Virus record (IMG/VR): IMGVR_UViG_3300045988_150762
Span: 1-28,719 of that record
Length of the DNA: 28,719 nucleotides
Direction: 5' to 3' (one strand)
Source: a virus
The position numbers and the translations under genes are program-made. The notes under the pieces are model-generated. The model was not told the origin of the DNA. It worked only from the letters and a program-made list of their open reading frames with translations, and made no database searches. Within the stretch, counting starts at the first letter, position 1; every line of letters begins with the position of its first letter. Shown here in pieces: positions 1-28,719 of this stretch.

Positions 1-55
1 TGCCACAGAAAAAAGTTCTGCCTATGCCACAGAAAAAAGTTCTGCCTATGCCACA
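1..55. repeat. Terminal overlap identical to 28665..28719 (circular-assembly signature)
   Basis: Exact 55-nt identity read directly: t + 2 x GCCACAGAAAAAAGTTCTGCCTAT + GCCACA at both ends. Confidence 0.95.
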
Positions 56-20967: not shown

Positions 20968-21162
20968 ATGAAGAAAGATGAGAAAAAAACATGGGGGGGC
21001 GCAAGACAAGGCGCAGGACGCAAGAAGAAAGATAACAAAGTGTTGCAGGTGTATATGAGCGAAACAGACATGTTAAGGCTAAAAGCACTTTCTAAAGCGC
21101 ACAAAATGCCAGTAGGCGAATACATTAGCAACGTTCTTCTGCCTTTAGTGGAAGAAAATTAA
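20968..21162 (+). CDS. Small DNA-binding protein, ribbon-helix-helix-like (regulator or directionality-factor candidate)
   Basis: N-terminal WGGARQGAGRKKK motif followed by a short strand-helix-helix-like region. 64 aa, directly upstream of the att-like region and int. Confidence 0.45.
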   Translation: MKKDEKKTWGGARQGAGRKKKDNKVLQVYMSETDMLRLKALSKAHKMPVGEYISNVLLPLVEEN

Positions 21163-21184
21163 ACGATAGTTTTATTATCTGTAG

Positions 21185-21226
21185 AGGCTTGGCAGTCTGT
21201 TTCTAATTTGCCGAGCCTTATTTTTT
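21185..21226 (+). terminator. Rho-independent terminator
   Basis: 10-bp stem AGGCTTGGCA (21185-94) / TGCCGAGCCT (21209-18) with one G-U pair, followed by TATTTTTT. Confidence 0.7.
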
Positions 21227-21636
21227 ACGTTTAAGTAAAAAAGGTGTAAAGATTTAGGGTTCTGTTTTTCCTTTGGTTTTGTGACGTGTACATTACAATA
21301 ACGTACTCGGAACGTGTTTTCTTTCGTTGCGTCAATTTTTTACACTGAATTTACACCCTGCAAAGGGTAAATTATTATCTAACTTGCTACTTTTCAATAG
21401 GTTACACAACGCTTTTTCTGGGGTTGTTTTTCCGCTTCGAGTACCCCAAAAGGTAAATTTTGAGGGTGCAAAGCAAAGAAAATCAGCAAGTTAGGGAGGT
21501 AGGGAAATTTTTCAATTTTTCGGGATTTTTCGGATTTTTACCCCTTTTTTCGGGGTTTTACCCCCTTTTTACCCTGTAAAAATGAATATTTTGAAGTATA
21601 TTTGCCATTGGCTAACAATTTTAAAATATTAAGACG
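21227..21636. repeat. Non-coding att-like region with multiple TTTACCC / TTTACAC motif copies (candidate attP arm sites)
   Basis: 410 nt without an ORF next to int. TTTTACCCC occurs twice, TTTTACCCTG once and TTTACACCCTG once, and inverted copies occur as AGGGTAAATT, AAGGTAAATT and GGTGTAAAG. TTTTCGGGA/TTTTCGGA direct repeats are also present. Confidence 0.5.
21597..21604 (+). promoter_or_regulatory. Candidate -7 box (TATATTTG) for int
   Basis: TAnnTTTG match 33 nt upstream of ATG 21637. No good -33 element. Confidence 0.35.
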
Positions 21637-22839
21637 ATGAAAAAAGAAAGAAAATTTGCATCGGAGGGGCTAATGGGCGGAGACGCAACAGACAACCCCA
21701 AATTAATGTACAGGGCATTAGAGAACGGAAAATTAAGCCTTTTTCTCGTTTATTACTATGGGTACAAAAAAGTAAAAGACGAAAAGACGGGGGCGGAGAA
21801 GATAAAGCACTTCCGAAAAAAAGAGACACTGAAATTATATGTTTTCGCTGACCCTATCAATACGGAGGAAAGACAATATAATAAAAAAGTTCTCATGCTT
21901 GCTAAAAAAATACGGTTTGAGCGAGAACAGGAACTGCTTGAAAATCGGGAGGGCTACAGATTGCAAAGTGACTTCAAAATAAATTTTTTCGATTATTTTC
22001 AGCACTATGTGGACGAGTGGAGAACGGAGAAGTCTCCGCGGCCGTTGAGGCTTGCGTTGAAGCTGTTCAGAGAATTTATCGGCGGTTCTGTCAGATACTG
22101 CCAATTTGAGGGCAATCTTGAACCTAACCAGATTACCCCCGAAATGATTAGGGATTTTACGAGGTTCTTGCAAGATAACTGTATAGGGACGGGGGCGGCT
22201 ACACACTACAAACGTTTTCGGAAAGTCATAAACTATGCCGTGGATAACGGTGTTATAAAGAAAAATCCATGCGAAAAGATTACAGTAAGAGAGGGACAGC
22301 AGAAAATGAAAGACTTTTTGTCGGCTGATGAGGTGCGGACGTTAGCGAAAACACATTATTTGGGTGAGAACCCTGTTATAAGGAGGGCGTTTTTGTTTTC
22401 CTGCCTTACGGGGTTAAGGTGGTGCGATGTCTGCGCCCTGACGTATGACAATATAGACTACGCTAACAACGTTTTTAGGTTTGTACAGATGAAAACGGAC
22501 AAAGAAATGACCATGCCATTGAATGACACGCTTCTGGGGTTAATAGAAGAACCACACACAGCACAACCCAGCAAGGAGAAAGTTTTCCCCCTGCCAAGCT
22601 TCACAATGTGCCTGAAAGCGTTGAGGCATTGGACGGCAAAGGCACGTATACACAAGCATATAACGTGGCACTGTGCCAGGCACTCGTTTGCTACACAATT
22701 AATATCTAATGGCGTTCATGAGCTTACTGCAGCCAGACTGTTAGGACATAGCAGCCTTAAATATATAGGGGTATACGCGCGAATGCTTGACGAGGACAAG
22801 CGCAAGGCACTGAACACCCTGCCCACGTTAGAACTATAA
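21637..22839 (+). CDS. int: Tyrosine recombinase / phage integrase (Bacteroidetes type)
   Basis: LTGLRWCDV (Arg), HCARHSFAT (H-x-x-R-H), LLGHSSL, and YIGVYARM (catalytic Tyr region). N-terminal LFLVYYYGY arm-binding-like segment. Confidence 0.95.
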   Translation: MKKERKFASEGLMGGDATDNPKLMYRALENGKLSLFLVYYYGYKKVKDEKTGAEKIKHFRKKETLKLYVFADPINTEERQYNKKVLMLAKKIRFEREQELLENREGYRLQSDFKINFFDYFQHYVDEWRTEKSPRPLRLALKLFREFIGGSVRYCQFEGNLEPNQITPEMIRDFTRFLQDNCIGTGAATHYKRFRKVINYAVDNGVIKKNPCEKITVREGQQKMKDFLSADEVRTLAKTHYLGENPVIRRAFLFSCLTGLRWCDVCALTYDNIDYANNVFRFVQMKTDKEMTMPLNDTLLGLIEEPHTAQPSKEKVFPLPSFTMCLKALRHWTAKARIHKHITWHCARHSFATQLISNGVHELTAARLLGHSSLKYIGVYARMLDEDKRKALNTLPTLEL

Positions 22840-23413: not shown

Positions 23414-23791
23414 TTATTTCCCTTTGAGTAGTGCTATAATTTCGTCTTTGTCCCTTAAACGTTCTTCTAACGTTCTGATTAGTTTTTCTTTATCGTCGAG
23501 CGCTTCTTTAAGGCGTGCAACTTCTGCCGCCAGCACTGTACTTTCTCCACGCTGCACTGTGCTTTTTATGTTGTTGCTATTTCCGTTTGCGATATTCCCG
23601 CTATTCTGGGTAATGTTTACAGGCGAGGGGGCGCCCATTAGCTCGCCTAATATTAGGCTTTTTGATTGCGGAATATTCTTTCCGTACTCCCAGTTTTGTA
23701 TGGTTTTAGGGTCTACACCTATCATTTCCGCAAGCTGTTTTTGCGTTAAGCCCAATTTTTTTCTAATATTTTTAATATCTAAAGCATTCAT
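23414..23791 (-). CDS. XRE-family HTH repressor (CI-like) with C-terminal coiled coil
   Basis: IKNIRKKLGLTQKQLAEMIGVDPKTIQNWEYGKNIP is a textbook HTH_3 motif. The gene is divergent from the early operon. Confidence 0.85.
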   Translation of the reverse strand: MNALDIKNIRKKLGLTQKQLAEMIGVDPKTIQNWEYGKNIPQSKSLILGELMGAPSPVNITQNSGNIANGNSNNIKSTVQRGESTVLAAEVARLKEALDDKEKLIRTLEERLRDKDEIIALLKGK

Positions 23792-23823: not shown

Positions 23824-23943
23824 ACGGAATATTTCCACGTAATTTCTATTGTCAAACACGGAAAATTCCGTACTTTTGCATTGTAATTTAAAAACAAAAG
23901 CAAATACAAATACAAAAGTAACAATTTTAAAATAAATAACAAA
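23824..23943. promoter_or_regulatory. Immunity switch: operator-like dyads plus two opposed consensus promoters
   Basis: O1 is ACGGAAtatTTCCaCGT (23824-40) and O2 is ACGGAAaaTTCCGT (23858-71). The + promoter is ATTG (23848-51)-19nt-TACTTTTG (23871-78). The - promoter is TTTG (complement of 23940-43)-19nt-TACTTTTG (complement of 23913-20). Confidence 0.55.
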
Positions 23944-24580: not shown

Positions 24581-24910
24581 ATGACAGCTATAAAACTGAC
24601 ACAAGCAGATATTGACGCTATAGCCAACGCCGTTGCAAAGAGGGTGTTTAGCGCAAAATTGGCGGAGGAAAAAGAATTCCTCACCCCCGCCGAGGCTGCC
24701 CAATTTTTGCAGAGGCCGTTAAGCGCTATCTACAAAATGACGAGTGCAAAGATTTTGCCGTACTATAAGGCGGGAGGGTTACGTTTCAGGCGGACAGAGT
24801 TAGAGAACTGGGCACGTAGTCGTAGAGTAATGACCAATAAAGAGTTAGACAGGCAGACGGACACGGAAGCGGCTTTGTATTGTATGAACAAGAAAAATAA
24901 AAGGGTTTAG
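24581..24910 (+). CDS. Excisionase-family / MerR-like HTH DNA-binding protein (Xis/AlpA-like)
   Basis: FLTPAEAAQFLQRPLSAIYKMTSAKILPYYKAGGLRFRRTELENW fits the HTH_17 pattern. Confidence 0.75.
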   Translation: MTAIKLTQADIDAIANAVAKRVFSAKLAEEKEFLTPAEAAQFLQRPLSAIYKMTSAKILPYYKAGGLRFRRTELENWARSRRVMTNKELDRQTDTEAALYCMNKKNKRV

Positions 24911-24917
24911 GACCCTG

Positions 24918-24962
24918 GGCGGCGCGTCTGCACCGAATAGTCATTCGTGCCGCCTTTTTTTT
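24918..24962 (+). terminator. Terminator-like hairpin, repeat unit 1
   Basis: GGCGGCG...(CGAAT agtc ATTCG)...TGCCGCC followed by 8 T. Confidence 0.5.
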
Positions 24963-25024
24963 AGAAAACATTAAAGTCTAACAAATAAAAAAAAGAAGAA
25001 AAATATCGAAGGTTTAGGACCCTG

Positions 25025-25068
25025 GGCGGCGCGTCTGCACCGAATAGTCATTCGTGCCGCCATTTTTT
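25025..25068 (+). terminator. Terminator-like hairpin, repeat unit 2
   Basis: Same hairpin as unit 1, followed by A plus 6 T. Confidence 0.5.
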
Positions 25069-25130
25069 AGAAAACATTAAAGTCTAACAAATAAAAAAAA
25101 GAAGAAAAATATCGAAGGTTTAGGACCCTG

Positions 25131-25174
25131 GGCGGCGCGTCTGCACCGAATAGTCATTCGTGCCGCCATTTTTT
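25131..25174 (+). terminator. Terminator-like hairpin, repeat unit 3
   Basis: Same hairpin as unit 1, followed by A plus 6 T. Confidence 0.5.
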
Positions 25175-25289
25175 AGAAAACATTAAAGTTTAACAAATAA
25201 AAATTACAAGAAAAATGATTAAAAAAGCAGACGCATTTGTATGTATTAATACAGTTATAATAATGCAATTTGCCTGTCTGTATGCAATT

Positions 25290-25321: not shown

Positions 25322-26024
25322 AAAGTATAAACTAACAGATGAAACAATGCTATTTCGTGGCAGAACTCTGCATCGTATTGTTGCACTCCGTGATTTTAAC
25401 GACGTTAAAAAAGGTGACAAGGGCGGTTGGATAGAAAAAGAGGAAAATCTATCGCAGGAGGGTGAATGTTGGGTCTTTGACAATGCGCAAGTCTATGACA
25501 ATGCGCAAATCTTTGGCAATGCGCGGGTCTTTTACAGCGCAAAAGTCTTTGACAATGCGCAAGTCTATGGCAGCGCGCAAGTCTATGACAATGCGCAAAT
25601 CTTTGGCAATGCGCGGGTCTTTTACAGCGCAAAAGTCTTTGACAATGCGCAAGTCTATGGCAGCGCGCAAGTCTATGACAATGCGCAAATCTTTGGCAAT
25701 GCGCGGGTCTTTTACAGCGCAAAAGTCTTTGACAATGCGCAAATCTTTGGCAATGCGCGGGTCTTTGGCAATGCAATAGCCGGTGGTGATGCAGAAATAT
25801 CTAATAAAGCAGACTACATCGTTTTCAAAAATTGGTGGTCATCTGGAAGGTACTTTACGTGGACTCGAAGCAACAATATGTGGTCAGTTGGTTGCTTTTA
25901 TGGCACTGGAGATGAGCTAATAAAAAAGGCTTATGAAGACAGCGAGGACAAAGGTAAACATTACGAGGAGATTGTGGAGTATGTTAATAAGTGTGTTCTG
26001 AAAAATGAACAAGAAACAAAGTAA
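25317..26024 (+). CDS. Hexapeptide-repeat (left-handed beta-helix-like) protein with conserved N- and C-terminal domains, function unknown
   Basis: ~19 consecutive hexads (VFDNAQ, VYDNAQ, IFGNAR, VFYSAK, VYGSAQ...). The N-terminus is LHRIVALRDFNDVKKGDKGGWIEKEENLSQEG and the C-terminus is WSVGCFYGTGDELIKKAYE. Confidence 0.8.
   Translation: MKKYKLTDETMLFRGRTLHRIVALRDFNDVKKGDKGGWIEKEENLSQEGECWVFDNAQVYDNAQIFGNARVFYSAKVFDNAQVYGSAQVYDNAQIFGNARVFYSAKVFDNAQVYGSAQVYDNAQIFGNARVFYSAKVFDNAQIFGNARVFGNAIAGGDAEISNKADYIVFKNWWSSGRYFTWTRSNNMWSVGCFYGTGDELIKKAYEDSEDKGKHYEEIVEYVNKCVLKNEQETK
25473..25775 (+). repeat. Perfect 90-bp tandem repeats (about 2.8 copies) on an 18-bp sub-period, inside the CDS
   Basis: GTCTATGACAATGCGCAAATC recurs at 25491, 25581 and 25671, with the intervening sequence identical. 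Confidence 0.95.
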
Positions 26025-26041
26025 AAAGTAAACACTATGAA
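26006..26041 (+). repeat. Direct repeat copy 2 flanking the hexapeptide-repeat gene
   Basis: TGAACAAGAAACAAAGTAAAAAGTAAACACTATGAA. It covers the end of the upstream CDS and the start codon of the next gene. Confidence 0.85.
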
Positions 26042-26258
26042 GAATTTTGCAACTACGAGACAGGAGAACGAAACATTTATTAAGTTGAGCGTATTGTTAA
26101 TACCCTCTTTTGTGTTGGTGTGTGCTGACAGTATAACAGCATGGGTAGCGGCTATTATTTGGGGCGCTGCGGCCTACAAAATAGCCAGAAAGTGGAACAG
26201 CAAGGCCGCCAGACGTTTGGCGCGTCTGCGTAGCGTTAGACGGTTGTTAGAAGATTAG
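26037..26258 (+). CDS. Small membrane protein (73 aa) with Arg-rich tail
   Basis: Hydrophobic LSVLLIPSFVLVCADSITAWVAAIIWGAAAY followed by KWNSKAARRLARLRSVRRLL. Confidence 0.6.
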   Translation: MKNFATTRQENETFIKLSVLLIPSFVLVCADSITAWVAAIIWGAAAYKIARKWNSKAARRLARLRSVRRLLED

Positions 26259-26323
26259 AACATTTTGTTTGTTGTTAATATATTATTTTAAGATTGTTAA
26301 GCTGGTGTCGTGATGACACCTGA

Positions 26324-26421
26324 TGCGGCGAGCATTCGCAGTGGCGAACGGGCTACATTCATTAAGGTTAAATTTTTTCATCGTTAAACTTTTTTTTGGG
26401 GTTCGAGTCCCCACGTCGCAC
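26324..26421 (+). ncRNA. tRNA-like element (acceptor stem plus T-arm, no canonical anticodon arm)
   Basis: The 7-bp acceptor pairing is TGCGGCG (26324-30) / CGTCGCA (26414-20). The T-arm is TGGGG-TTCGAGT-CCCCA (26397-26413). A D-like hairpin TTCG-CAGTGG-CGAA is present. The middle ~45 nt is A/T-rich with a GTTAAAyTTTTTT direct repeat. Confidence 0.45.
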
Positions 26422-26435
26422 TAAAGGTTAAAGAC

Positions 26436-27296
26436 ATGGCAGAATATAAGCAGCTGAATATCTTCGGAGAGCTTGAAGATATTGACATGGAGAAAAAAGG
26501 CAAGAGGGCAAAGACCTTTGAGGATTACGAGGGCTTTGTTAAGAAGTTCGAGGTGAAAAAGACCACGGACGATTGCTATACCCCGCCAACGCTTTACGAA
26601 ATAGTAAAAGATTGGACGGTGAAGCGGTTCGGGCAGAATGGGGCAAAAATAATTCGCCCCTTTAAGCCTGGGGGCGAATTCATAAACGAGGACTACAGCG
26701 GGGACTGTGTTGTAATTGACAATCCGCCTTTCTCCATACTTAAAAAAATATGTGATTTTTATAACGCACGCGGTATTAGGTTCTTTTTGTTCTGTCCTGG
26801 GTTGACATCTATATACAAGGGTTGTACTTATGTGGCGGTTAATGCTAAAATTACTTACGAGAACGGGGCAAATGTAAACACGTGCTTTGTAACTAATCTT
26901 GCAGGCGACCTCATTGCCATGACGGCGCCAGATTTGAGCAAGTCTTTGAATGTCGAAAACAAACGCTTGATGAAGCAGGGCAAGAAAGATGTTTCTAAAC
27001 TTGCATTTCCGCCTCAAGTGCTGCGTGCTTTTGATTTGCAGAGGCTTGCAAAGTGTGGGGTACATTATGAGGTGAGAGCATCGGAGGGGGCTGTACGTTC
27101 TAAGGTATGCGATTATGACGCTTTTGGGAGCTCTGTTCTGTTGAGCGATGAGGCTACAGTAAAACGTATTAAGGCGGAGGAAGATGCAACACGGGCGGAA
27201 TTCGAGGAGATACGCGCAGAAAAAACGATGTTGCAGCTATCGCAGACAGATATGAATATTATTAACTCATTAAATAAAAATACGAAACATGATTGA
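26436..27296 (+). CDS. Putative N6-adenine DNA methyltransferase (phage Dam-like, orphan)
   Basis: VVIDNPPFS (motif IV D/N-PP-F/Y) preceded by TTDDCYTPPTLYE. No restriction partner is present in the genome. Confidence 0.55.
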   Translation: MAEYKQLNIFGELEDIDMEKKGKRAKTFEDYEGFVKKFEVKKTTDDCYTPPTLYEIVKDWTVKRFGQNGAKIIRPFKPGGEFINEDYSGDCVVIDNPPFSILKKICDFYNARGIRFFLFCPGLTSIYKGCTYVAVNAKITYENGANVNTCFVTNLAGDLIAMTAPDLSKSLNVENKRLMKQGKKDVSKLAFPPQVLRAFDLQRLAKCGVHYEVRASEGAVRSKVCDYDAFGSSVLLSDEATVKRIKAEEDATRAEFEEIRAEKTMLQLSQTDMNIINSLNKNTKHD

Positions 27297-28383: not shown

Positions 28384-28719
28384 ATGGTAAGAGATAAATT
28401 CACGTTCTATGCCGACTGGGTAGAGGCGTTGCGCATTCTACCGCCAGAGGATTTCAAGGCCGCTTTTATGGCAATGGCAGAGCTGGCATTATATGATAAA
28501 GCGCCGCAAGATACGTTACAAGGTTTTTCCGCTGTGGTGTACTCTATGGCCGAGCGTCAGCTTGTCAGCAACGCAAAGCGGTATGACGGAGCACAAAAGG
28601 GAGGTGTGTCTAAAGCGCTAAGGCAATGCCACCATGGCAATGGCACAGAAAAAAGTTCTGCCTATGCCACAGAAAAAAGTTCTGCCTATGCCACAGAAAA
28701 AAGTTCTGCCTATGCCACA
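28384..28719 (+). CDS. N-terminal part of junction-spanning replication-associated protein (continues at 2..577)
   Basis: AGGAGG lies 4 nt upstream of ATG 28384. MVRDKFTFYADWVEALRILPPEDFKAAFMAMAELALYD resembles an N-terminal domain I recall from Bacteroidota phage/plasmid replication-module proteins. There is no stop before the window end. Confidence 0.7.
   Translation, partial: MVRDKFTFYADWVEALRILPPEDFKAAFMAMAELALYDKAPQDTLQGFSAVVYSMAERQLVSNAKRYDGAQKGGVSKALRQCHHGNGTEKSSAYATEKSSAYATEKSSAYAT
28642..28719 (+). repeat. 24-bp tandem repeat, 3 units plus 6 nt, coding (G/A)TEKSSAY
   Basis: GGCACAGAAAAAAGTTCTGCCTAT followed by 2 x GCCACAGAAAAAAGTTCTGCCTAT and GCCACA. The last two units are also seen at 2-55. 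Confidence 0.95.

What the first reader, a model, noticed from the sequence alone, without database searches (positions are those of the whole stretch)
26303..26435. Non-canonical 98-nt tRNA-like element immediately upstream of the methyltransferase gene
TGGGG-TTCGAGT-CCCCA is a textbook T-arm. It is followed by CGTCGCA, which pairs over 7 bp (one G-U) with TGCGGCG 84 nt upstream, in correct tRNA geometry.

A 4-bp D-like hairpin is present, with loop CAGTGG, but it is offset by two extra nucleotides. The region where the anticodon and variable arms should be is about 45 nt of A/T-rich sequence containing a GTTAAAyTTTTTT direct repeat and no anticodon stem. No CCA is encoded. A perfect 6-bp hairpin (GGTGTC/GACACC, 26303-26320) sits just upstream, and the element ends 14 nt before ATG 26436.

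Possible interpretations are:
- an RNase P / RNase Z processing signal for the downstream mRNA
- a tRNA mimic or decoy
- a degenerate or disrupted phage tRNA
- a captured tRNA-derived att sequence
Basis: partly seen in the sequence, partly recalled or inferred. Interest (0 to 1): 0.65.

Follow-up and report, generated by a model that had tools for sequence, protein, structure and literature searches.

The report
Anticodon-less tRNA-like RNA in phage leaders
The sequence just upstream of the phage DNA-methyltransferase gene is a real, evolutionarily conserved folded RNA that copies the top half of a tRNA but has no anticodon arm. It belongs to a small undescribed family found in front of early genes of related temperate phages, where it most likely acts as a cutting signal for the host's tRNA-processing enzymes.

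Summary
Window 26324-26421 (+) has a 7-bp acceptor-like stem, a canonical T-arm (TGGGG-TTCGAGT-CCCCA), a D-like hairpin and a 48-nt U-rich middle with no anticodon stem. A hairpin lies just upstream at 26304-26320.

ARAGORN and Rfam do not call it.

Comparative data show it is a selected RNA structure:
- It is conserved upstream of the same methyltransferase gene in seven related phage contigs.
- One of these is a diverged lineage (L007) in which every helix, including the upstream hairpin, is kept through compensatory changes.
- A paralogous copy, "e2", has the same architecture. It lies directly upstream of Bro-N/ANT antirepressor genes in seven contigs with differing surroundings.
- On the e1+e2 alignment, 96.9% of cells pair and 9 of 16 pairs show double changes.

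The middle segment varies from about 31 to 88 nt. The first acceptor pair is not conserved.

It is not a host tRNA 3' end (0 hits in 185,579 genomes), not the attP and not a decaying tRNA gene.

Best explanation, inferred rather than shown: a leader-embedded tRNA mimic cut by RNase P and a 3' tRNA-processing nuclease. This would mature the downstream mRNA and possibly release a small RNA. A C4-like antisense role was tested and is not statistically supported.

This is a new variant of a known kind.

The parts
26264..26296 (+). Possible Bacteroidota-type promoter: TTTG, a 17-21 nt spacer, then TAAGATTG. This is one mismatch from TAnnTTTG. It would place a transcription start at about 26300-26304.
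   Evidence: The relaxed pattern matches here. That relaxed match is not significant on its own, since 13 of 100 shuffles reach as many matches. The exact consensus is enriched in the window, with 5 sites against 1.56 expected. The stretch is nearly invariant in 7 relatives. This part is inference.
26304..26320 (+). Hairpin 3 nt upstream of the tRNA-like element: GGTGTC, loop GTGAT, GACACC.
   Evidence: It is kept in L007 as GCGTT/AACGC with loop GTGA. Two pairs carry double changes, and G-C alternates with G-U at the closing pair.
26324..26330 (+). 5' strand of the acceptor-like stem (TGCGGCG). Pairs 2-7 (26325-26330) are the conserved ones.
   Evidence: Four of 7 pairs have compensatory changes across e1, the L007 e1 and e2. 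Pair 1 is unpaired in 5 of 12 sequences.
26331..26334 (+). Linker AGCA. Together with G26330 it forms the GAGCA motif, invariant but for one GAGTA in L006 e2.
   Evidence: Alignments A4, A7 and A8. RNAalifold pairs AGC with GCU at 26352-26354. These pairs never vary in e1, so that helix is untested.
26335..26348 (+). D-like hairpin: TTCG, loop CAGTGG, CGAA. Loop consensus is C-R-G-N-G-G.
   Evidence: 100% of cells pair and 3 of 4 pairs have double changes. The stem is CCCA/TGGG in L007 and ACCG/CGGT in e2.
26349..26396 (+). Variable U-rich middle that replaces the anticodon and variable arms. It starts with the conserved GGGC and ends in a T-run. It contains the semi-conserved motif TTTTTTCATCGTT (26373-26385).
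   Evidence: Length by the same boundaries is 48 nt here, 31 nt in L002 (about 17 nt lost between the GTTAAA repeats), 88 nt in L007 and 44-51 nt in e2. No conserved pairing was found in it.
26397..26413 (+). T-arm: a 5-bp stem and the 7-nt loop TTCGAGT.
   Evidence: The stem is TGAGG/CCTCA in L007 and the 6-bp GGAGGG/CCCTCC in e2. L003 and L004 gained one G and one C together. The only Rfam similarity is to the T-arm part of other models.
26414..26421 (+). 3' strand of the acceptor-like stem (CGTCGCA) plus C26421. The dinucleotide A26420-C26421 is invariant in all 15 copies. No CCA is encoded.
26422..26435 (+). Short A-rich spacer between the element and the start codon. It has no Shine-Dalgarno sequence and no terminator.
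   Evidence: Read from the sequence. No terminator-like site lies between the element and the ATG.
26436..27296 (+). Downstream gene: a 286-aa phage DNA N6-adenine methyltransferase-like protein (phrog_21498), first gene of the replication-side operon.
   Evidence: One homologue is named DNA N-6-adenine-methyltransferase by its source.

Best explanation
The element is a structured RNA on the + strand. It is made as part of the 5' leader of the methyltransferase operon and copies the acceptor/T-arm half of a tRNA.

Its anatomy is:
- a continuous acceptor plus T stack of about 11-12 bp;
- a canonical UUCGAGU T-loop;
- a short D-like hairpin;
- a floppy U-rich linker of variable length in place of the anticodon and variable arms.

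This is exactly the part of a tRNA that RNase P, RNase Z-type 3' nucleases and the CCA-adding enzyme recognise. The most likely working is therefore as follows. The host tRNA-maturation machinery cuts the primary transcript on both sides of the element, at about 26324/26325 and just after 26420/26421. That removes the 5' hairpin leader and frees the downstream mRNA with a leader of only about 14 nt. It also releases a tRNA-like RNA of about 97 nt.

The paralogue e2 would do the same in front of antirepressor (Bro-N/ANT) genes.

Shown here: the structure, its selection, its family, its fixed position 14-31 nt upstream of a start codon, and its strand. Inferred: transcription from the nearby promoter-like site, cleavage by RNase P and RNase Z, and any effect on expression.
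For: Structure and selection:
- The element is conserved upstream of the same gene in L002-L006, L009 and L011, whose methyltransferases are 84-92% identical.
- L007, whose methyltransferase is 61% identical, keeps all four helices through double changes. On alignment A5, 98.3% of cells pair and 8 pairs carry double changes. No shuffle of 500 reaches this, and the slid controls give 34-66%.
- A covariance model built from e1 alone finds the paralogue e2 at E 1e-8 to 1e-10 in loci outside the training set.
- On e1+e2, 96.9% of cells pair and 9 of 16 pairs are compensatory.
- RNAalifold recovers the same helices independently on an unfitted MAFFT alignment.

Strand: the G-U pairs would be C.A on the other strand, and the T-loop reads UUCGAGU only on the + strand.

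Context:
- There is no terminator between the element and the ATG.
- The element is always 14-31 nt from a start codon.
- e2 and the 5' part of ant move together as one mosaic block between otherwise different phages.

Established knowledge, not tested here: acceptor/T-arm minihelices are sufficient substrates for bacterial RNase P and RNase Z. Phage leader RNAs such as P1/P7 C4 are matured by RNase P (PMC5320573).
Against: - No RNA-end data are available, so cleavage is untested.
- The length of the acceptor+T stack varies (11, 12 or 13 bp), and the first pair is not conserved, so the exact cut site is uncertain.
- The D-like hairpin may close into a tetraloop. In that case the conserved GG would not be free to form a tRNA-like elbow.
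- e2 is absent from some close relatives that still carry ant (L005, L009), so it is dispensable for that gene.
- A pure processing signal does not explain the semi-conserved UUUCAUYGUU motif in the middle.
- The promoter assignment rests on a one-mismatch consensus match.
Confidence: 0.55

Rival explanations
1. It is a trans- or cis-acting antisense regulator on a tRNA scaffold, analogous to C4 of P1/P7 or CI of P4. After RNase P processing, the exposed U-rich middle (UUUUUUCAUCGUU) would pair with A-rich, AUG-containing translation start regions of phage genes such as integrase, the first early gene or ant, and block their translation.
For: - The window middle has a perfect 12-nt complement to the integrase start region at 21634-21645.
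- e1 of L005, L009 and L011 has 11 nt complementary to the start region of the first early gene next to the cI-like repressor. e2 of L234 and L230 has 14-15 nt complementary to the start regions of the homologous gene and its neighbour.
- e2 lies directly upstream of ant, as c4 does in P1 (PMC5320573).
- The motif is shared by e1, the L007 e1 and one e2 type.
Against: - Shuffled middles reach equal or better complementarity in most loci. In the window, 194 of 300 shuffles do so, and only 4 of the 13 elements tested had fewer than 12 of 200 shuffles reach the observed score.
- Many genes here start with AUGAAAA after an A-rich leader, so any U-rich stretch with CAU finds start regions.
- The motif is deleted in L002 e1, and the CAU is lost in the L006-type e2.
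- The best targets are not orthologous between phages.
Confidence: 0.15
2. It is a cis-acting leader element that works without tRNA-type processing. Possibilities are a stabilising 5' structure, a scaffold presenting a U-rich binding site for ribosomal protein S1 to drive Shine-Dalgarno-independent initiation, or a put-like RNA that modifies RNA polymerase to read through terminators.
For: - Its position is fixed 14-31 nt upstream of start codons that lack a Shine-Dalgarno sequence.
- The U-rich single-stranded segment is always present.
- e2 sits just after a terminator-like hairpin.
- Two paralogous copies in front of early genes recall putL and putR of HK022 (from my own knowledge).
Against: - The invariant tRNA-type T-loop and the acceptor/T stack of tRNA length are hard to explain unless a tRNA-recognising factor is involved.
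- No known antiterminator or enhancer family matches.
Confidence: 0.15
3. It is a tRNA mimic that titrates or recruits a host or phage factor that binds the tRNA acceptor/T-arm. Candidates are the CCA-adding enzyme, a modification enzyme, an acceptor-targeting toxin or defence nuclease, or an aminoacyl-tRNA synthetase.
For: - The element keeps the acceptor/T half and drops the anticodon half in all 15 copies.
- If the mature RNA starts at G26325, the window type reads G1-C72, G3.U70 with an A as discriminator. This resembles the alanine identity set. That reading comes from the sequence and my own knowledge.
Against: - The G.U is replaced by G-C in L006, in L007 and in all e2 copies, so alanine identity is not conserved.
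- No partner protein gene is consistently adjacent.
- No padloc or defence evidence was sought or found.
Confidence: 0.1
4. It is a non-functional relic: a decayed phage tRNA gene or a tRNA-derived attachment-site fragment.
For: ARAGORN and Rfam do not call a tRNA, and there is no anticodon stem.
Against: - Compensatory changes occur in all helices across three lineages.
- Two paralogues share the same derived architecture.
- The T-arm plus acceptor 22-mer has 0 matches in 185,579 genomes and the 24-mer 0 matches in IMG/VR.
- The integrase, with its repeat-rich upstream region, is at 21160-22839, about 4.7 kb away.
Confidence: 0.03

Closest known systems
Canonical bacterial/phage tRNA (Rfam RF00005)
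   Same: A 7-bp acceptor-like stem stacked on a 5-bp T-stem, the T-loop UUCGAGU, a hairpin with a conserved GG where the D-arm lies, and a length not far from a class II tRNA.
   Different: No anticodon stem-loop in any of 15 copies. There is a 4-nt linker instead of 2 nt, and the D-like stem may be a 5-bp tetraloop hairpin. The middle is of variable length (31-88 nt). No CCA is encoded. ARAGORN and the tRNA covariance model do not detect it.
mascRNA / MEN-beta tRNA-like structures (RF01684), and similar tRNA-like punctuation such as plant mitochondrial t-elements and MHV68 TMERs
   Same: A tRNA-like fold embedded in a longer transcript, serving as an RNase P/RNase Z cleavage signal rather than as a decoder. 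The only Rfam similarity found is to this family's T-arm (14-17.5 bits).
   Different: Those are eukaryotic or organellar, sit at 3' ends or between genes, and keep a small anticodon-like arm. Scores here are far below the gathering threshold of 42.5 bits. Processing is not shown here.
C4 antisense RNA of phages P1/P7 (RF01695) and CI RNA of P4
   Same: A small structured RNA encoded in the leader of a temperate-phage early or immunity operon, co-transcribed with the genes downstream. C4 lies upstream of the antirepressor gene ant, as e2 does. C4 is matured by RNase P (PMC5320573).
   Different: There is no sequence or covariance-model similarity. C4 has three stem-loops with antisense loops and no tRNA-type T-loop. 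Antisense complementarity here is not better than chance. The host phylum differs.
tRNA-like domain of tmRNA (RF00023)
   Same: An acceptor stem plus T-arm with no anticodon arm, and a reduced D region.
   Different: This element is about 100 nt instead of 260-400 nt. It has no pseudoknots and no conserved tag reading frame. The G.U is not conserved. The Rfam hit covers the T-arm only (9 bits against a threshold of 47).
Bacterial Y RNA YrlA tRNA-like module (PMC4201824)
   Same: A bacterial or phage non-coding RNA that mimics the tRNA T-arm, D-arm and acceptor.
   Different: YrlA continues into a Ro/Rsr-binding helix and is encoded next to rsr. No Rsr gene and no such helix are present here, and there is no Rfam hit.

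Membership tests
tRNA (RF00005) | Detected by tRNA gene finders or the covariance model | tested here: not met
   ARAGORN finds 0 genes in the window and in L001-L011. Rfam gives no tRNA hit even at E<=10. The only tRNA-clan hit is tRNA-Sec at 13.1 bits against a threshold of 47, in L007.
tRNA (RF00005) | Anticodon stem-loop between the D-arm and the T-arm | tested here: not met
   No conserved pairing in the 31-88 nt middle in any of 15 copies.
tRNA (RF00005) | Acceptor stem stacked on a T-arm with a T-loop of type UUCRANN | tested here: met
   The stack is 11-13 bp and the loop is UUCGAGU or UUCGACC.
tRNA (RF00005) | 3' CCA (encoded or added) and aminoacylation | not testable with these tools
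   CCA is not encoded. The invariant 'AC' follows the stem.
tmRNA (RF00023 and its two-piece variants) | Covariance-model match, a tag reading frame, and G3.U70 | tested here: not met
   There is only a 17-nt T-arm match of 9.2 bits. A possible frame, GCU...UAA, in the window is not kept in L007 or L002 (read). The G.U is replaced by G-C in 6 of 12 copies.
C4 antisense RNA (RF01695) | Covariance-model match to the C4 fold | tested here: not met
   No hit at E<=10.
C4 antisense RNA (RF01695) | Loops complementary to the ribosome-binding region of the regulated operon | tested here: inconclusive
   Complements of 11-15 nt to start regions exist. They are not above the shuffled controls in most loci.
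C4 antisense RNA (RF01695) | 5' end made by RNase P | not testable with these tools
   This needs RNA-end mapping or an in-vitro cleavage assay.
mascRNA-menRNA (RF01684) | Covariance-model score at or above the gathering threshold | tested here: not met
   14.4 and 17.5 bits against 42.5.
Phage attP / tRNA-derived att core | Identity with the 3' end of a host tRNA gene, and adjacency to the integrase | tested here: not met
   0 matches of the 22-mer in 185,579 species genomes. The integrase is at 21637-22839, and the repeats upstream of it are at 21526-21570.
YrlA / bacterial Y RNA | A Ro/Rsr-binding helix and a neighbouring rsr gene | tested here: not met
   No Rfam hit. No Ro-like protein was seen among the roughly 20 window ORFs I scanned.

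The most novel reading that the evidence does not exclude
Temperate phages of (probably) Bacteroidota carry a family of RNase P-matured small RNAs built on an anticodon-less tRNA scaffold. The replaced anticodon region (UUUUCAUYGUU) would act as an anti-start-site sequence that shuts off integrase, early-gene or antirepressor translation. That would make it a C4-like immunity or timing RNA, invented independently in a phylum that lacks Hfq and Shine-Dalgarno-led initiation.
Probability: 0.12. Interest if true: 0.8.

Novelty: new variant of a known kind. Interest (0 to 1): 0.6.

Why it matters
If the inferred processing is real, these phages use the host's tRNA-maturation enzymes to punctuate and mature early mRNAs for an orphan DNA methyltransferase operon and for antirepressor genes. 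That kind of control is known from eukaryotic long non-coding RNAs, organelles and a few proteobacterial phages, but not from gut Bacteroidota phages.

The family is small and well defined. It has natural compensatory variants, so it is directly testable. It also offers a minimal natural model of what RNase P and RNase Z need from a substrate. Finally, it marks a class of elements that standard tRNA and ncRNA annotation misses.

Tried and rejected
1. Host tRNA or att origin. Exact scans with the T-arm plus acceptor found nothing in IMG/VR (24-mer) or in GTDB species genomes (22-mer).

A stricter version with a TTTT anchor worked on metagenomes and gave 3 true e2 copies out of 11 hits.

3. A T-loop variant (UUCAA) scan of IMG/VR gave 2 hits, neither real.

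4. None of the 80 loci of more distant methyltransferase homologues (38-54% identity) carries the element by either covariance model.

5. Antisense targets. Complementarity to start regions was found but is not above shuffled controls. A full RNAduplex scan timed out.

6. A small protein on the minus strand. The ORF MKKFNLNE... in the window is frameshifted in L005 and L011 and stops after 4 codons in L007. This is my reading of the sequences, and the ORF is rejected.

7. tmRNA-like tag frame. It is not conserved.

8. Replication origin at the A/T-rich middle. This is unlikely, because an iteron array lies elsewhere, at the window ends and inside the DUF6291-like gene of relatives.

9. A promoter inside the middle. 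No Bacteroides-type consensus is present there.

10. Cultured phages. No blastn match for either element in 50,697 GenBank phage records.

11. Host identification. Cluster look-up returned no names. Bacteroidota is inferred from three things: the integrase domain set (Arm-DNA-bind_5 and Phage_int_SAM_5), enrichment of the TTTG...TAnnTTTG promoter consensus, and leaders without a Shine-Dalgarno sequence.

Full report
**Observation**

- A 7-bp acceptor-like stem pairs 26324-26330 with 26414-26420. One pair is G-U.
- The T-arm is textbook: TGGGG, TTCGAGT, CCCCA (26397-26413).
- The D-like hairpin has a 4-bp stem and the loop CAGTGG (26335-26348).
- The middle is 48 nt, A/T-rich, and carries the GTTAAA-T-run direct repeat.
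- No CCA is encoded.
- The upstream hairpin is at 26304-26320.
- The ATG is at 26436.

ARAGORN finds no tRNA or tmRNA in the window. Rfam finds nothing at gathering thresholds. At E<=10 it reports only a 17-nt T-arm match to mascRNA, at 14.4 bits.

From this one sequence alone the case is modest. The fold z-score is -2.1. T-arm plus 7/7 acceptor geometry appears in 9.5% of shuffled windows, and in 0.5% if the D-like hairpin is also required.

**Surroundings**

The window is a complete temperate siphovirus-type genome of about 28.7 kb. Evidence for that:

- The same 24-nt repeat array sits at both ends, so it is a circle opened inside iterons.
- It encodes a large terminase, portal, capsid and connector.
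- It encodes a tyrosine integrase with Arm-DNA-bind_5 and Phage_int_SAM_5 domains at 21637-22839.
- It encodes a cI-like HTH_3 repressor on the minus strand at 23414-23791.

A rightward early operon follows the repressor: an MKTEI... gene, an HTH_17 gene, a YdcK-repeat gene and a 73-aa gene. The element comes next. After it lie a 286-aa protein (phrog_21498), small ORFs and a VRR-NUC gene. One homologue of the 286-aa protein is named DNA N6-adenine methyltransferase by its source.

The Bacteroides promoter consensus TTTG-N17-23-TAnnTTTG is enriched in the window, with 5 sites against 1.56 expected. A one-mismatch version ends at 26296, 8 nt before the hairpin. A Bacteroidota host is inferred from these features, not shown.

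**Comparative evidence for a selected structure**

The methyltransferase has close homologues (84-92% identity) on seven other contigs and one at 61%.

In the close relatives the intergenic element is almost invariant in the stems, and the changes it does show respect pairing:

- T to C turns the G.U into G-C in L006.
- U-A alternates with U.G in the D-like stem.
- L003 and L004 gained one G and one C together, lengthening the T-stem.

The middle is the variable part. L002 has lost about 17 nt between the two GTTAAA repeats.

In the 61% lineage (L007) every helix has a different sequence but is maintained:

| Helix | Window | L007 |
|---|---|---|
| Upstream hairpin | GGTGTC/GACACC | GCGTT/AACGC |
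| Acceptor | GCGGCG/CGTCGC | AGGGTG/CACCCT |
| D-like stem | TTCG/CGAA | CCCA/TGGG |
| T-stem | TGGGG/CCCCA | TGAGG/CCTCA |

Blastn sees no homology between L007 and the window group in this stretch, although the flanking genes align at about 69-73%.

Counting on the MAFFT alignment A5 gives 98.3% of cells paired and 8 pairs with double changes. No shuffle of 500 reaches this. The slid controls give 34-66%. RNAalifold recovers the same helices on its own. It also proposes closing the D-like loop by a C-G pair and adding an AGC/GCU helix. Those extra pairs never vary, so they remain untested.

**A paralogous copy, e2**

A simple geometry scan found a second element with the same architecture in L002, L006 and L011. 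It lies between the terminator-like hairpin after the HTH_17 gene and a Bro-N/ANT antirepressor gene. Its parts are:

- acceptor GGCGTG/CACGCC;
- linker AGCA;
- D-like ACCG-CAGWGG-CGGT;
- GGGC, an A/T-rich middle and a T-run;
- T-arm GGAGGG-TTCGAGT-CCCTCC;
- the trailing 'AC'.

A covariance model built only from e1 (R1) finds these copies at E 1e-8 to 1e-10. Gapped-pattern scans plus the model added e2 copies from IMG/VR (L222) and from metagenomes (L230, L231, L234).

In L231 and L234 e2 again sits 25-31 nt upstream of a Bro-N/ANT gene. Homology with L006 covers only e2 (from about 40 nt upstream of it in L231 and L222) together with the first ~350 nt of ant in L222, L230 and L231. In L234 it reaches just past the ant start codon. 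So e2 and the 5' end of ant move as one mosaic block.

On the model-guided alignment of e1+e2, 96.9% of cells pair and 9 of 16 pairs have compensatory changes. The slid controls give 31-61%.

Several features are shared by all 15 copies or nearly so:

- The first acceptor pair (U26324-A26420) is unpaired in 5 of 12 sequences. The conserved stack is therefore 6 acceptor pairs plus 5-6 T-stem pairs.
- 'AC' after the stem is invariant.
- GAGCA is invariant but for one GAGTA.
- The loop C-R-G-N-G-G, GGGC and UUCGA are invariant.

G-U pairs and the T-loop place the RNA on the + strand.

A second model from all 15 copies (R2) found no further members. It was run against 97 sources, including 80 loci of more distant methyltransferase homologues. 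Neither element has a match in GenBank phages. The window itself has only e1. Where relatives carry e2, it has three tandem 106-nt copies of the terminator-hairpin unit.

**What it is not**

- *Host tRNA 3' end or att core.* The 22-mer has 0 matches in 185,579 species genomes and the 24-mer 0 in IMG/VR. The probable attP, with arm-type repeats, lies next to the integrase.
- *Decaying tRNA gene.* Three lineages maintain the same anticodon-less design through compensatory change.
- *tmRNA, Y RNA, C4 or any other Rfam family*.
- *Coding on the minus strand.* This is my reading of the sequences. The ORF is frameshifted in L005 and L011 and stops after four codons in L007.
- *The replication origin.* This is unlikely, because the iterons lie elsewhere.

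**Mechanism**

The conserved part is the part of a tRNA that RNase P, RNase Z-type nucleases and the CCA-adding enzyme read: the stacked acceptor and T helices, the T-loop, and perhaps an elbow contact through the conserved GG. The part needed for decoding is absent.

The element is always co-oriented with a start codon and lies 14-31 nt upstream of it, with no intervening terminator.

My best explanation is therefore a leader-embedded tRNA mimic that recruits host tRNA-processing enzymes. They would cut the early transcript on both sides. This would remove the 5' hairpin leader, leave a short-leader mRNA for the methyltransferase operon (or for ant, in the case of e2), and release a tRNA-like RNA of about 97 nt. 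I put confidence in the processing model at 0.55 and in the structure itself at above 0.9. The cleavage steps rest on established substrate rules for these enzymes and on precedents such as the RNase P-matured C4 RNA of P1/P7 (PMC5320573). They are not shown here.

**The antisense idea**

The middle carries a semi-conserved UUUCAUYGUU motif. In the window, TTTTTTCATCGT (26373-26384) is perfectly complementary to the integrase start region at 21634-21645. In other loci, e1 or e2 has 11-15 nt of complementarity to start regions of the first early genes.

This recalls C4, which is encoded upstream of ant and masks ribosome-binding sites. However:

- shuffled middles do as well in most loci, with 194 of 300 shuffles in the window;
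- the motif is missing in L002 e1, and its CAU is lost in one e2 type;
- A-rich AUGAAAA starts are common in these genomes.

I keep this as a rival at about 0.15. Further rivals are a processing-independent leader function (stability, S1-type enhancer or put-like antitermination) and a decoy for an acceptor-binding factor. The alanine-like G3.U70 of the window type is not conserved.

**Comparison and novelty**

The element works most like tRNA-like punctuation signals (mascRNA/MEN-beta, organellar t-elements) and like RNase P-matured phage leader RNAs (C4, CI). It fails the membership tests of each of those families and of tRNA and tmRNA. It is best filed as an undescribed family of anticodon-less tRNA-like leader RNAs in a narrow group of temperate phages, which makes it a new variant of a known kind.

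I score interest at 0.6. The structure is real, has a distinct architecture and is missed by annotation. It sits in front of biologically interesting genes and is readily testable. Its function remains inferred, and the family seen so far is small.

Noticed in passing
window 24890-25216: There are 3.1 tandem copies of a 106-nt unit. Each carries the GC-rich terminator-like hairpin (GGGCGGCGCG...CGTGCCGCC plus a T-run) that follows the HTH_17 gene in all relatives. Relatives L002, L006 and L011 carry the paralogous tRNA-like element e2 at this position instead.
   Followed up: partly
window 1-55 and 28640-28719: The same 24-nt repeat (TGCCACAGAAAAAAGTTCTGCCTA) is at both window ends, so the window is a circular genome opened inside an iteron-like array. 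In relatives the array lies inside the DUF6291-like gene (for example L002:5448-5519), which is the probable replication origin.
   Followed up: partly
window 21526-21570 (within the intergenic stretch 21160-21636): 20-nt repeats (TTTTTCGGxxTTTTACCCCC) lie just upstream of the integrase gene. They are probably arm-type integrase binding sites of the attP region.
   Followed up: no
window 21613-21628 and 23919-23934: The same 16-mer, TAACAATTTTAAAATA, lies 8-12 nt upstream of both the integrase start and the first early-gene start. At 23913-23943 it coincides with an exact Bacteroides-type promoter consensus on the minus strand. It may be a shared operator or promoter module.
   Followed up: no
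window 25473-25774: 18-nt and 90-nt tandem repeats lie inside the 235-aa gene. They are coding repeats of a YdcK-type beta-solenoid protein. This gene occupies the slot where relatives have Bro-N/ANT.
   Followed up: no
L047:1020-1129 and 1183-1246; L056:1183-1246; L069:259-400; L075:732-797 and 1294-1428; L084:287-354; L091:970-1035: Other ARAGORN-negative tRNA-like sequences lie upstream of distant homologues of the same methyltransferase in IMG/VR phages. They have a T-arm and a 7-bp acceptor, often with an encoded CCA. Some have canonical D and anticodon arms plus a ~65-nt insert before the T-arm, and some lack a D or anticodon arm. The covariance models R1 and R2 do not match them, so they are a separate phenomenon.
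   Followed up: partly
window 26037-26258 and L007:~1015-1190: The small gene just upstream of e1 encodes a protein of about 73 aa whose C-terminal half (a hydrophobic stretch, then a basic tail) is recognisably conserved in the L007 lineage, where no gene was called. The order small gene, e1, methyltransferase is syntenic in both lineages.
   Followed up: no
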